DNA from: Candidatus Babeliales bacterium
GTDB lineage: Bacteria; Babelota; Babeliae; Babelales; Vermiphilaceae
Length of the DNA stretch: 64,000 nt
Direction: 5' to 3'
NCBI GenBank assembly: GCA_963743635.1
Contig: CAVUQO010000002.1
Span: 1 to 64,000 of the forward strand
In this document: piece after piece, positions 21,001-24,000 of the stretch
Numbering within the stretch: the stretch's first letter is position 1
Layout: each line of letters begins with the position of its first letter
Made by a program: the position numbers

Positions 21001-24000
21001 CTGGTACTATGAACTCAGCTTTAGAGGGTCCATTATCATGATTTGGGTAAGCAACTTAGTCACTGCATTCATTATGTACCGAGTACTTCATTAATTGAAT
21101 TTTTGGCTGTGCTAGGATACGTAACCGCCTCAATAGTACTGCGCGTCGCATGCTCCTCAAAACCAAGCTGAATAATCGTATCGACAAAATCCATCGGCTT
21201 CATGCCAATTTCAGCAGCTTGATGGAAGATGCAGGTTGCGGGCGTCATACCCGGAAGCGAATTGATCTCTAATATGACTACGCGATCTTTGTCTGTTGGA
21301 CTTTGTTCTGCTGTTTGATAGAAACAATCGATACGCGCATACCCTTTGCAGCCAACAGCGGCATACACTTTTTCCATTTCATCTTGCACAAAACGTAATG
21401 TGGCAGCCGGTAGTGGAGCTGGCGTTTGATTTTCACCTGCGCCTGGCAAGAATTTTTCTTCAATCGATAAAATATCTGATGTAGATACCGCTTGGCTTGG
21501 CGGCAATGCGCGTGGCGTTTCGTTGCCAATAACGCCGACGGTCAGTTCCATACCAATGACGCATTCTTCAATAAGTGCATGCCTTTTGCCGTGCGCAAAT
21601 AATGTCTCAACCGCATTTTCCAGCTCTTCAAGGGTGCGTGCCTTTTGAACCATTACGCTGCAGCCATCATCATGTGGTTTGATGATGCACGGCAATCCAA
21701 ATTCTTCAAGCGCCGCATCAAAAATTACTTGCTTATTTGAGTGCCATGTTTCGTGATCCACGAAAATTGCGCCCGGGACTTGAAAGCCACGATGCTTTAA
21801 AAATTGCGTTGTTTTATATTTATCCATGCAGAGTGCGCTGGTGAGTACCGATGATCCGTTATACGGTAAGCCAAGCAATTCAAGCGCTCCTTGCACCGTA
21901 CCATTTTCTCCTTCGCCTCCATGTAGTCCGATAAATACGAAATCGACCATTGAAGGCAAGTCTGACCATAAAAGAGGCGTAGTGCCTTTGATGGCATCTT
22001 CAATTTCTTTGGTAGAGTTGCGCACGAGTAATGATTGATTTAACGGGTAAAGTTTCATCTCATTGCTCACAAATATTGGCACAACTTCATATTTTTGAGG
22101 CGACAATTTATAGGTAATATTGCGTCCAGATTCGAGTGATATTTCCTTTTCATTAGAGCGACCGCCCATAAAAACGGCAACGCGAGTTTTAGTTTGCTGC
22201 ATAACGCGTGATTCTTTCTCTTCTTGCAGGGTAATTGCATCAAGCATACCGTAAGCCTGCAACTCTGTTTCAATTAAATGATTGATTAATGTGGTATGGC
22301 TCATATTGATTTCAGCGGCTTGTCGGAATAAAAAGCTTGAAGGAGCCATGCCCGAAAGTGTGTTCGGATCAATGATGATAACTTTGTTATCCTTGGTTAC
22401 AAAGCCGTCGATACGTGAAATAGTCTTGATTTCAAGAGCAAGCGTGGTATCAATACATGCTTTATGAATTGCCTGTATAACTTCATCAGAACATCGTGGT
22501 GGTGTAAATTTGGTTGCGCGGCCGGGCATATATTTTTGTTCATAGTCAAAGAGATGTGTGTTCTCTTCAGGTACGATTTCAGTTGGCGGGAGTGGCAATA
22601 ATTTATTTTTCTTATAATCAGCGATGGTAATGCATGAAAATTCCATGCCCTCAATCTTTTCTTCAATTAAAATTGCCTGATCTTTTTCTTCATGAATTGT
22701 GGCTGCATGTATCATTGCATCATGTAGTTCGTCTTCTTTAAAAACGATACGAATGCCCAGACTCGAGCCTTCTTTGAATGGCTTGATGATATAGGGAAAA
22801 GCAACTCCCAAAGCTTGCATACGCTGCACGATGGTTGCAGTATCGACGGTTTTAAGTTCATGGGGGTAGAGATGTATGCCGCGCGGCGTGTTAATGCGAT
22901 GCATATTGAGAATCTCTTTTTGCATGATTTTATCCATGGAGAGCGCGCTTGCAAAAACTTTTGAACCAAGATAGGGGATGTTTAAAATTTCGAGCATACC
23001 TTGGAGTGTGCCATCTTCCGCGTAACGTCCGTGGGTTGCGATATAGATGAAATCGATACAAGTTGGTAATGCATCCCAGGTTAATCGCGTGGCTTCTGAT
23101 TCAAGGCGATGTTGAAAATCACTGATTTTACCGCGATGCAAAAAATGCCATGGTAATATAAAAAGTGCGCCATCGTTGCGCTGGAAAATAGGAGTGATGT
23201 CATAGCGCGATGTATCAAGATGATCACATATGGTCCGGCCAGAATTAAATGATACTTCTTTTTCAATTGATTTGCCGCCCATTAAGACGCCAACACGTAA
23301 TTTATTCATGAAAAAATCCTGAAGTTTCTGGTGAATTTTTATAATTTAGAGTAATGAATTGCGCCTATTTGTAAAGGAATCATTTTATAGTAGACTTACA
23401 TACTCGCAATGCATTATTTCATTGTATTACAAAGGCTTTACGTACATAATATTCATACATACATTTTTTTTAATTATGATAAAAACTAAAAGGAAAAACT
23501 ATGGCCCGCAAGAGCACTTTTATATGGATTGATCTTGAAATGACGGGGCTTTTTCCCGAAACCGACCATATTCTTGAGATTGCCTCAATTATTACGGACA
23601 GCGATTTAAATGTTCTTGAGTATGGCCCTGTACTTGTGATTCATCAGCCGGAAGAAATTCTTGATACCATGATTGAGCGTGTGCGCCAATTGCATGAACC
23701 GTCTGGTTTAATTAATGAAGTGCGTGCATCAACAGTTACACTTGAAGAAGCAGAGAGAGAAACACTTGAGGCGATTCAACGCAATTGTGAGCGGCATACG
23801 GGTATTCTTGCCGGTAATTCCGTGTGGCAAGATGCAGCGTTTATGCGCAAATACATGCCGCGCCTTATGAAATATCTTCACTATCGCATTGTGGACGTTT
23901 CGAGCATTAAAGAGGTGGTGAGTTCTTGGTATCCAAAAGATCCGCAGGTATTCTTTGAGAAAAAAACCGCGCATCGCGCGCTGCAGGATATTGAAGAATC

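What a model noticed while it worked through the whole genome (the two positions that open the first line are those of the whole stretch)
21072..23309. Two D-Ala-D-Ala ligases fused in one chain, one Tyr-type and one Phe-type
g00071 (745 aa) is two complete D-alanine--D-alanine ligase units in tandem, 29% identical to each other; the active-site loop of the first has Lys-Tyr, that of the second Lys-Phe. I read it as a covalent hetero-dimer that makes two wall termini, D-Ala-D-Ala by the Tyr half and the depsipeptide D-Ala-D-lactate (the vancomycin-insensitive kind) by the Phe half, fixed in the whole phylum. New: Ddl is known as a homodimer or fused to MurC (Chlamydia); a tandem Ddl-Ddl with split Tyr/Phe sites is not described.
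Evidence so far: pfam.tsv: Dala_Dala_lig_N 5-116 and _C 168-347, again _N 376-486 and _C 504-714. The halves align with 112 identities in 386 columns; both keep the acid-x-Asn metal site before Pro/Ser-Gly-Met (Asp in half 1, Glu in half 2). Swiss-Prot Ddl matches each half apart, 33-35%. One open frame of 736-802 aa in 21 of 24 other Babelales sampled from 20 families, two adjacent genes in 1, none found in 2. The Lys-Tyr and Lys-Phe loops are the same in the two distant relatives read. Rule Tyr = dipeptide, Phe = depsipeptide: abstract and passages of PMC5996685; that this is the omega-loop pair of E. coli DdlB is recalled. Context: four VanX-like Peptidase_M15 genes (g00044, g00396, g00565, g00602) and tw [...]
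(Added by a program. Inside this text positions count along the whole contig: contig position 1 is position 1 of the stretch shown here. "Call 12" and the like, gene names such as g00115 and contig names such as C1 are that model's own, and its searches are not shown. The text may have been shortened before it was handed on; [...] marks where a part breaks off. The agent that wrote the report below was given it as the finding of a first reader that could run no searches.)

Follow-up and report, generated by a model that had tools for sequence, protein, structure and literature searches.

The report
Two-module D-alanine ligase, unequal sites
This gene really joins two different D-alanine-D-alanine ligase units in one protein and is the bacterium's only such enzyme, but it belongs to an old family also found in other bacteria and reported in plants, and nobody has tested what its altered second site makes.

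Summary
Window 21072..23309 (-) is one 745-aa frame with two complete Ddl units, 31% identical to each other. It is the only Ddl in this 1.45-Mb genome.

The fusion is not new. Plant DDL is published as a fusion of two DDL enzymes (PMC9954125, passages). I found the same family in Bacteroidota, Patescibacteria, a Parachlamydiaceae MAG and Actinomycetota.

Every tandem examined (229 + 38 + 236) has a first unit with Ser150/Lys-Tyr. Every one has Lys-Phe in the second unit, and all but one have Cys150 there. Both unit types form one clade apart from canonical Ddl.

The family is near-universal in Dependentiae (237 of 261 genomes). It is patchy elsewhere (3 of 201 and 9 of 201).

Nothing supports D-Ala-D-lactate synthesis:
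- This genome has no D-2-hydroxyacid dehydrogenase, and only 43 of 261 genomes in the phylum do.
- Linked genes are alanine racemase and MurF-like.
- Moss, reported to have a two-unit DDL, makes the D-Ala-D-Ala pentapeptide.

The most likely role is a housekeeping D-Ala-D-Ala ligase built as a fused pseudo-heterodimer. The chemistry of the second site is untested.

This scan has reported the same family on other genomes at least eleven times.

The parts
21072..23309 (-). Whole gene: two-module D-alanine ligase, 745 aa plus stop
   Evidence: ORF. Pfam Ddl_N + Ddl_C twice. The whole protein scores 462 bits against a 243-bit cut-off on NCBIfam NF002378.
22254..23309 (-). Module 1 (N-type), residues 1-352: E16, H93, K127, K176, S182, K259-Y260, R299, D301, D314, N316, S325-F326
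   Evidence: Aligned to E. coli DdlB E15, H63, K97, K144, S150, K215-Y216, R255, D257, E270, N272, S281-L282.
22530..22535 (-). Lys259-Tyr260 of the module-1 omega loop
   Evidence: Lys-Tyr in 229 of 229, 38 of 38 and 236 of 236 N-type units.
22194..22253 (-). Linker, residues 353-372, not conserved
   Evidence: 0 of 23 columns in residues 351-373 (the window measured, slightly wider than this part) are at least 95% conserved; 37.6% mean identity against 63-66% in the modules.
21144..22193 (-). Module 2 (C-type), residues 373-722: E387, H463, K497, K544, C550, K619-F620, R659, D661, E681, N683, T692-C693
21660..21662 (-). Cys550, at the position of DdlB Ser150 (motif DDGCS)
   Evidence: Cys in 228 of 229, 38 of 38 and 236 of 236 C-type units.
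21450..21455 (-). Lys619-Phe620 of the module-2 omega loop (motif EEKFLPG)
   Evidence: Lys-Phe in all C-type units examined.
21075..21143 (-). C-terminal tail, residues 723-745, not conserved
   Evidence: 9.4% mean identity among Dependentiae-type relatives.

Best explanation
The gene encodes the cell's housekeeping D-alanine ligase in its two-module form. An old duplication inside the long (DdlA-like) branch of the Ddl family gave two unit types. The N-type keeps the canonical Glu-Ser-Tyr hydrogen-bond triad. The C-type has Cys and Phe in place of Ser and Tyr. The two are kept together, usually fused N-to-C in one chain and sometimes as two genes. I infer, but have not shown, that the two units pack against each other as the subunits of ordinary Ddl dimers do, giving a covalent pseudo-heterodimer joined by a free ~20-residue linker. 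Both units keep every ATP-, Mg- and phosphate-binding residue, so both probably turn over. At least one of them makes the D-Ala-D-Ala that MurF needs, from D-Ala supplied by the two alanine racemases. The dismantled triad of the C-type site most likely changes how the second substrate is chosen or how the site behaves kinetically, rather than defining a second wall terminus. Shown: anatomy, conservation, phylogeny, distribution, sole-copy status and gene linkage. Inferred: packing, activity of both sites and products.
For: Sole Ddl in the genome, alongside MurF (366 bits, cut-off 288.6), an MraY-family gene and two alanine racemases. The tandem or split pair is also the only clear Ddl in a Parachlamydiaceae MAG, Gracilibacteria and Uhrbacteria MAGs, a Hymenobacter MAG, and Cytophagaceae, Sphingobacteriales and Cyclobacteriaceae genomes. 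Catalytic residues E15, H63, K97, K144, K215, R255, D257, N272 and an acid at 270 are kept in both units in essentially all tandems. Conservation is equal in the two units: identity to this protein is 63.4% against 65.9%, and 104 of 350 against 108 of 347 columns are at least 95% conserved. N-type and C-type form one clade (support 0.995) apart from 39 canonical Ddls and 8 references. C-type is monophyletic (0.96-0.99). The sister group is DdlA/VanA/VanC1/Bacillales/actinomycete Ddls (0.80). Linkage to the D-Ala branch: alanine racemase sits directly downstream in Saccharibacteria and Peribacteria loci, and MurF-like-Alr sits two genes upstream (an aminotransferase between) in a Solirubrobacteraceae locus. 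Ddl-Ddl-MurF-like and Ddl-Ddl-Mur ligase-Alr fusions exist. Plant DDL is a fusion of two DDL enzymes (PMC9954125, passages). [quoted passage not shown] The Ddl dimer is a recurrent feature of solved structures (PMC6899670, passages). The ESM Atlas's own model of a group-C tandem (P0183) has pTM 0.89.
Against: No bacterial member has been assayed. In lactic acid bacteria Phe at this position goes with depsipeptide synthesis (PMC5996685, abstract). By my recall, not seen here, E. coli DdlB triad mutants gain D-Ala-D-Lac activity. VanX-like dipeptidases are common in the phylum (141 of 261). I could not obtain plant sequences, so I did not check that plants carry the same Tyr/Phe signature. No structure model could be made, so the packing is inferred. 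The trees are FastTree only, and N-type is paraphyletic in the larger tree.
Confidence: 0.68

Rival explanations
1. One reading: the Tyr module makes D-Ala-D-Ala and the Phe module makes D-Ala-D-lactate, so one chain supplies two wall termini.
For: Phe620 at DdlB Tyr216 and Cys550 at Ser150 dismantle the triad. The Phe = depsipeptide, Tyr = dipeptide rule holds in lactobacilli (PMC5996685, abstract). VanX-like genes: 4 in this genome and in 141 of 261 genomes of the phylum.
Against: This genome has no D-2-hydroxyacid dehydrogenase, and only 43 of 261 in the phylum do, against 237 of 261 with the tandem. Half 2 scores 139.8 bits against a 550-bit cut-off on the D-Ala-D-Lac equivalog. No lactate dehydrogenase or VanX lies next to the gene in the 10 loci read. 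The same C-type signature sits in the only Ddl of free-living Bacteroidota. Moss, reported to have a two-unit DDL, shows the D-Ala-D-Ala pentapeptide and a vancomycin phenotype (PMC9434261, passages). Two VanX-likes look exported and one is fused to a FAD oxidoreductase.
Confidence: 0.1
2. Only one module is catalytic. The other, probably the C-type without the triad, is a structural or regulatory partner that still binds nucleotide.
For: The C-type lacks Ser150 and Tyr216 in every member. Obligate pairing of the two types, fused or split, suggests interdependence.
Against: All ATP, Mg and phosphate ligands (K97, K144, K215, R255, D257, E270, N272) are kept in the C-type, and its omega loop is among the most conserved stretches. 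Conservation equals that of module 1. Phe-type Ddls of lactic acid bacteria are active enzymes (PMC5996685, abstract).
Confidence: 0.12
3. The C-type module makes a different D-Ala-D-X or X-D-Ala product (D-Ser, another D-amino acid or a hydroxy acid) used for something other than the main stem peptide.
For: Fixed changes lie at the second-substrate pocket (S281T, L282C/V/A) as well as at the triad.
Against: Scores are poor against the D-Ala-D-Ser models (162.5 bits against 520). No serine racemase or other supplier is linked. There is no data on products.
Confidence: 0.1

Closest known systems
Plant chloroplast DDL (Arabidopsis At-DDL, Physcomitrium PpDDL)
   Same: Described as one gene that fuses two putative DDL enzymes (PMC9954125, passages). 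[quoted passage not shown] The ESM Atlas lists Streptophyta clusters with Ddl_N + Ddl_C among the nearest neighbours of the bacterial tandems.
   Different: Eukaryotic and plastid-targeted. I could not fetch a plant sequence, so the shared Tyr/Phe + Ser/Cys signature and the place of plants in the tree are untested here.
Canonical homodimeric Ddl (E. coli DdlA and DdlB)
   Same: Same two Pfam domains and the same ATP, Mg and substrate ligands. Module 1 keeps the Glu-Ser-Tyr triad.
   Different: Canonical Ddl is one unit per chain with two identical sites per dimer. Here there are two non-identical units in one chain. Fixed changes are E270D (most members) and L282F in unit 1, and S150C, Y216F, S281T and L282C/V in unit 2. 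They are absent from 39 of 39 canonical Ddls read.
Phe-type Ddl of vancomycin-resistant lactic acid bacteria (e.g. L. reuteri Ddl F258)
   Same: Phe at the Tyr216 position of the omega loop, next to the conserved Lys (PMC5996685, abstract).
   Different: Those are single-unit enzymes in organisms that make D-lactate. Here the Phe unit is always paired with a Tyr unit, also has Cys at Ser150, and most carriers in this phylum lack a D-2-hydroxyacid dehydrogenase.
VanA-type D-Ala-D-Lac ligases
   Same: Same fold and family. They fall in the sister clade of the tandem units.
   Different: In my alignment VanA has Glu-Val at the Lys215-Tyr216 columns, whereas module 2 keeps Lys. Module 2 scores 118.9 bits against a 775-bit cut-off on the VanA model. 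There is no vanH or vanX neighbour.
Chlamydia MurC-Ddl fusion
   Same: A Ddl unit fused to another peptidoglycan-precursor enzyme in intracellular bacteria (PMC10214165, passages).
   Different: The partner there is MurC, not a second Ddl. The passages I read of that survey of Mur chimeras name no Ddl-Ddl form.

Membership tests
D-alanine--D-alanine ligase family (ATP-grasp, Pfam PF01820 + PF07478) | N-terminal and C-terminal Ddl domains over Pfam's cut-offs | tested here: met
   Both domains are found twice: 170.7 bits (cut-off 34.6) and 235.6 bits (cut-off 24).
D-alanine--D-alanine ligase family (ATP-grasp, Pfam PF01820 + PF07478) | NCBIfam Ddl subfamily score over the curated cut-off | tested here: inconclusive
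   The whole protein scores 462, 454 and 454 bits against cut-offs of 243-262. Each half alone scores 224-235 bits, just under those cut-offs.
D-alanine--D-alanine ligase family (ATP-grasp, Pfam PF01820 + PF07478) | ATP, Mg and phosphate ligands (DdlB K97, K144, K215, R255, D257, E270, N272) | tested here: met
   All are present in both modules. Module 1 has Asp for E270.
D-alanine--D-alanine ligase family (ATP-grasp, Pfam PF01820 + PF07478) | Glu15-Ser150-Tyr216 hydrogen-bond triad (role recalled from the DdlB literature) | tested here: inconclusive
   Module 1 has E16, S182, Y260: met. Module 2 has E387, C550, F620: not met.
Two-module (N-type + C-type) Ddl family, to which published plant DDL is assigned | Two Ddl units in one chain in the order N-type then C-type, each with its fixed signature | tested here: met
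   The signature is shared with 229 tandems, 38 tandems from named genomes and 236 more. Both halves fall in the matching clades.
Two-module (N-type + C-type) Ddl family, to which published plant DDL is assigned | Plant DDL carries the same signature and falls in the same clade | not testable with these tools
   No plant sequence appeared in the top 120. The supplement of PMC9954125 could not be read. Hirano 2016 and Machida 2006 are not held.
D-alanine--(R)-lactate ligase (NCBIfam NF000206 and the VanA-type exceptions) | Score over the equivalog cut-off | tested here: not met
   139.8 bits (module 2) and 121.4 bits (module 1) against 550. VanA model: 118.9 bits against 775.
D-alanine--(R)-lactate ligase (lactic-acid-bacteria type) | Phe in place of Tyr216 | tested here: met
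   F620 in module 2 only.
D-alanine--(R)-lactate ligase (either type) | A D-lactate source (VanH- or LdhA-type D-2-hydroxyacid dehydrogenase) in the genome | tested here: not met
   No PF00389 match in this genome. The single PF02826 hit is a 6-phosphogluconate dehydrogenase. The genome is rated 85% complete, and host-derived D-lactate is not excluded.

The most novel reading that the evidence does not exclude
In every carrier (Dependentiae, some Patescibacteria, Bacteroidota and Actinomycetota, and perhaps plant plastids) the Cys/Phe module is a dedicated second-product ligase making D-Ala-D-lactate or another D-Ala-D-X. One chain would then deliver two kinds of stem-peptide terminus, and the pairing is kept because both products are needed.
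Probability: 0.12. Interest if true: 0.8.

Novelty: new member of a known kind. Interest (0 to 1): 0.4.

Why it matters
The gene itself is an ordinary member of a large family that databases already annotate as D-alanine--D-alanine ligase.

The family deserves attention for three reasons:
- It is the only Ddl of a whole phylum of intracellular bacteria, and of some Patescibacteria and Bacteroidota. The published plant DDL is also described as a two-unit fusion.
- Its two active sites have been kept different in the same way across all of them.
- My four literature searches found no paper that describes the bacterial form or the fixed Ser/Tyr versus Cys/Phe asymmetry.

Simple enzymology would settle whether the second site is a normal, relaxed or different ligase. 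That matters for how D-cycloserine and glycopeptide targets are read from genomes, because the rule "Phe means D-Ala-D-Lac" would mislabel this whole family. It also bears on the origin of the plant enzyme.

Tried and rejected
No model was made, so the pseudo-dimer packing is untested here.

Plant sequences. None appeared among the best 120 of my three protein searches. The zip supplement of PMC9954125 gave no text. Hirano 2016 (PMC4981129) and Machida 2006 (PMC1458953) are not held.

D-lactate dehydrogenase. The one PF02826 hit in the genome is a 6-phosphogluconate dehydrogenase next to a 464-aa ORF that I read by eye as glucose-6-phosphate dehydrogenase (untested). I rejected it as a VanH candidate.

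VanX context as support for depsipeptide use. I weakened this. The family is in only 141 of 261 genomes. Two of the four own copies have signal-like N-termini, and one is fused to a DAO-type oxidoreductase.

The idea that half 1 might be inactive. I rejected it on equal conservation and intact ligands.

Promoter and terminator scan around the gene. It found nothing above shuffled expectation: 7 promoter-like sites against 9.2, and 3 terminator-like sites against 3.0.

Literature. Four searches for a bacterial Ddl-Ddl description and the Mur-chimera survey PMC10214165 (passages) gave nothing. One search failed on a typing rule and was repeated.

Group labels. I first treated group C as Pseudomonadota on the Atlas label and one MAG name. 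Named loci show it is mainly Patescibacteria, plus Actinomycetota and a Parachlamydiaceae MAG.
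Full report
**1. What is in the sequence**

Window 21072..23309 on the - strand is one open frame of 745 aa. 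Pfam finds the two Ddl domains twice each. The two halves are 31% identical (110 of 352, E 2e-55). Each half alone matches 37 distinct PDB sequences. Every name in the two tables is a D-Ala-D-Ala ligase, VanA or a D-Ala:D-Lac ligase.

The N-terminus (MNKLRVGVLMGG) lines up with residue 1 of E. coli DdlA in the alignment, so the start is sound. The gene stands alone. An oligoribonuclease-like ORF runs divergently upstream, and a small membrane-like ORF converges on its 3' end and overlaps it by 23 bases (both labels are by eye and untested). A promoter and terminator scan gave nothing above shuffled expectation.

**2. The active sites**

I fetched E. coli ddlB from the K-12 record. I checked that the residue numbers I recalled (E15, H63, K97, K144, S150, K215, Y216, R255, D257, E270, N272, G276, S281, L282) are those residues in that sequence.

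| DdlB position | Module 1 | Module 2 |
|---|---|---|
| E15 | E16 | E387 |
| H63 | H93 | H463 |
| K97 | K127 | K497 |
| K144 | K176 | K544 |
| S150 | S182 | C550 |
| K215-Y216 | K259-Y260 | K619-F620 |
| R255 | R299 | R659 |
| D257 | D301 | D661 |
| E270 | D314 | E681 |
| N272 | N316 | N683 |
| S281-L282 | S325-F326 | T692-C693 |

The Phe is not alone: module 2 has also lost the Ser of the Glu-Ser-Tyr triad and changed the two residues that close the second-substrate pocket.

**3. It is the cell's only Ddl, in a genome with the rest of the D-Ala branch**

A whole-genome search with PF07478 finds two matches, both in this frame. The genome is 1.45 Mb in 3 contigs and rated 85% complete. It has MurF (366 bits, cut-off 288.6), an MraY-family gene and two alanine racemases.

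**4. Distribution in the phylum**

- 237 of 261 genomes of the phylum match the protein. Among high-quality genomes the count is 185 of 189, and by genus 133 of 145.
- The 150 best places listed all cover the query from residues 1-4 to 719-741 in one frame. One of them has a single TAA.
- Fusion is not obligatory. Of five multi-piece cases I opened, three closed or near-closed genomes (G030, G110, G197) have adjacent intact N-type and C-type genes. One (G252) is a fused 826-aa frame with insertions. One (G253) is broken over three frames.
- Family f20 carries an 812-826-aa version that nests among Patescibacteria sequences in both halves of the tree. That is most simply a replacement by transfer.
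- In family f15, none of 6 genomes matched the protein. G115 (98% complete) has no Ddl domain, and G115 and G116 lack an MraY-family gene. G080 of family f6 (95% complete) also has no Ddl domain, and G080 and G081 both have an MraY-family gene.

**5. It is not special to the phylum**

A search of 1.84 billion cluster representatives gave three length classes of two-unit proteins:
- about 740 aa, the Dependentiae type;
- about 870-950 aa, 36-42% identical;
- about 780-850 aa, 31-36% identical.

Names and loci place the 900-aa class in Bacteroidota: Hymenobacter, Cytophagaceae, Cyclobacteriaceae, Sphingobacteriales, Roseivirgaceae and others. They place the 800-aa class in several groups:
- Patescibacteria (Saccharibacteria, Peribacteria/Peregrinibacteria, Gracilibacteria, Uhrbacteria);
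- a Parachlamydiaceae MAG;
- a Solirubrobacteraceae MAG;
- cultured Dactylosporangium and Pseudofrankia.

This rests.

In evenly drawn samples the tandem is rare elsewhere. It was found in 3 of 201 genomes of the Hymenobacter MAG's phylum and 9 of 201 of the Saccharibacteria MAG's phylum, at E <= 1e-60. Dependentiae is therefore the phylum where the form is fixed, and it is patchy elsewhere.

**6. One family, one signature**

| Set (call) | N-type units | C-type units |
|---|---|---|
| 229 tandems from the two protein searches (30) | Lys-Tyr 229 of 229 | Lys-Phe 229 of 229; Cys150 228 of 229 |
| 38 tandems from named genome loci (75) | Lys-Tyr 38 of 38 | Lys-Phe + Cys150 38 of 38 |
| 236 further tandems (104) | Ser150 / Lys-Tyr 236 of 236 | Cys150 / Lys-Phe / Thr281 236 of 236 |

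Three of the 239 new proteins could not be split into two units and were left out. Asp at position 270 of the N-type unit is common but not universal (200 of 236).

By contrast, 39 of 39 single-unit Ddls from other phyla in the same loci set have Ser150, Tyr216, Glu270 and Ser281, and 33 of the 39 also have Leu282.

In a 160-sequence tree, all N-type and C-type units plus twelve unfused look-alikes form one clade (support 0.995). C-type is monophyletic (0.96-0.99). Both halves show the same main groups, with Dependentiae-type, Bacteroidota and the 800-aa class each clustering. The sister group (0.80) holds E. coli DdlA, two Bacillales Ddls, VanA, VanC1 and three actinomycete Ddls. A smaller tree gave the same picture. 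Both are FastTree trees, and in the larger one N-type is paraphyletic, probably because of a long branch.

Cardinium cBtQ1 has a C-type gene and an N-type gene about 340 kb apart.

**7. Is it the working ligase elsewhere?**

Whole-genome PF07478 searches show the tandem as the only clear Ddl in these genomes:
- the Parachlamydiaceae MAG;
- the Gracilibacteria and Uhrbacteria MAGs;
- the Hymenobacter MAG;
- the Cytophagaceae, Sphingobacteriales and Cyclobacteriaceae genomes.

The Saccharibacteria MAG has one further weak 325-aa candidate. The Solirubrobacteraceae MAG has two canonical Ddls as well.

**8. Linked genes**

- Alanine racemase follows the tandem directly in a Saccharibacteria locus and a Peribacteria locus.
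- A MurF-like-Alr fusion lies two genes upstream, with an aminotransferase between, in the Solirubrobacteraceae locus.
- Natural fusions include Ddl-Ddl-MurF-like (P0230), Ddl-Ddl-Mur ligase-Alr (P0258) and GNAT-Ddl-Ddl (P0206).
- In Bacteroidota there is Ddl-Ddl followed by a hydrophobic helix and a PASTA domain. A separate PASTA gene lies directly downstream in a Cyclobacteriaceae locus and in Cardinium.
- No lactate dehydrogenase or VanX-like gene lies next to the tandem in the 10 loci read.

**9. What print says**

- PMC7432710 (passages): lists the plant enzyme as a characterised D-Ala-D-Ala ligase.
- PMC5996685 (abstract): gives the Phe/Tyr rule for lactobacilli.
- PMC6899670 (passages): says the Ddl dimer is a recurrent feature of solved structures.
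- Searches for a bacterial Ddl-Ddl and the Mur-chimera survey PMC10214165 (passages) gave nothing.
- The primary plant papers are not held.
- That E. coli DdlB triad mutants gain depsipeptide activity is my recall only.

**10. The D-lactate idea**

For it:
- Phe620 and the lost triad.
- VanX-like genes in this genome (4 ORFs) and in 141 of 261 genomes of the phylum.

Against it:
- No D-2-hydroxyacid dehydrogenase here. The only PF02826 hit is a 6-phosphogluconate dehydrogenase.
- PF00389 is in only 43 of 261 genomes of the phylum (37 of 189 high-quality).
- Module 2 scores 139.8 bits against a 550-bit cut-off on the D-Ala-D-Lac equivalog.
- The linked genes supply or consume D-Ala.
- The same C-type unit sits in the sole Ddl of free-living Bacteroidota.
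- The moss data point to D-Ala-D-Ala.
- Two of the four own VanX-likes begin with signal-like hydrophobic stretches, read by eye. One is fused to a DAO-type FAD oxidoreductase, which looks like D-Ala-D-Ala breakdown.

Host-derived D-lactate cannot be excluded. I could not confirm the signature in plants.

**11. Both modules are under equal constraint**

Among 59 Dependentiae-type relatives, identity to this protein is 63.4% in module 1 and 65.9% in module 2. Columns at least 95% conserved number 104 of 350 and 108 of 347. The linker has 0 of 23 such columns.

**12. Verdict**

The gene is a regular member of an old two-module Ddl family whose plant counterpart is in print. It is most likely the housekeeping D-Ala-D-Ala ligase working as a fused pseudo-heterodimer.

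The fixed asymmetry of the two sites is real, family-wide and unexplained. D-Ala-D-lactate synthesis is possible but has no support beyond one residue.

Earlier reports of this scan on other genomes reached the same reading. I read them after my own analysis had reached it. One of them gave me the lead to look for plant sequences with a Patescibacteria query, which failed here.

No structure model could be made here.

Noticed in passing
G000:C1, locus L016:1444-3144 (-): A 567-aa ORF fuses a DAO-type FAD oxidoreductase (PF01266) to a VanX-like D-Ala-D-Ala dipeptidase domain (PF01427). It looks like a two-step D-Ala-D-Ala breakdown enzyme.
   Followed up: partly
P0138, P0141, P0163, P0201, P0243; loci L054:8679-9482 and L056:7326-8072: In Bacteroidota the two-module Ddl is often followed by a hydrophobic helix and a PASTA domain in the same chain, or by a separate PASTA gene directly downstream. 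This includes Cardinium. A wall-sensing domain tied to a cytoplasmic ligase is unexpected.
   Followed up: partly
P0230 (1262 aa), P0258 (1638 aa); locus L035:807-4406: Ddl-Ddl-MurF-like and Ddl-Ddl-Mur ligase-alanine racemase fusions exist, and a MurF-like-Alr fusion lies two genes upstream of the tandem (an aminotransferase between) in a Solirubrobacteraceae MAG. MurF'-Alr chimeras were described in 2026 (PMC13726279, passages), but I saw no mention there of a link to a two-module Ddl.
   Followed up: partly
Genomes G115, G116 (family f15) and G080, G081 (family f6) of the phylum: No genome of f15 matched the protein (0 of 6). G115 (98% complete) has no Ddl domain, and G115 and G116 lack an MraY-family gene, so the family may be wall-less. 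G080 of f6 (95% complete) has no Ddl domain, and G080 and G081 both have an MraY-family gene.
   Followed up: partly
Loci L021, L022, L023 (family f20 of the phylum): This family's tandem (812-826 aa) groups with Patescibacteria sequences in both halves of the tree, which suggests replacement by horizontal transfer.
   Followed up: partly
G268 (Cardinium cBtQ1): L056:6016-7344 and L111:932-2341: The C-type and N-type units are separate genes about 340 kb apart, each of about 440-470 aa.
   Followed up: yes
G000:C3, loci L019 and L020: Two full alanine racemase genes (362 and 383 aa) in a 1.45-Mb genome.
   Followed up: no
window 19257-19925 (+) and 19903-20670 (+): Two adjacent ORFs with clearly similar sequences, by eye nitroreductase-like (family not tested). 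The second has a hydrophobic N-terminal extension.
   Followed up: no
window 43900-44264 (+): tmRNA gene: Rfam RF00023, 143.6 bits, full length.
   Followed up: no
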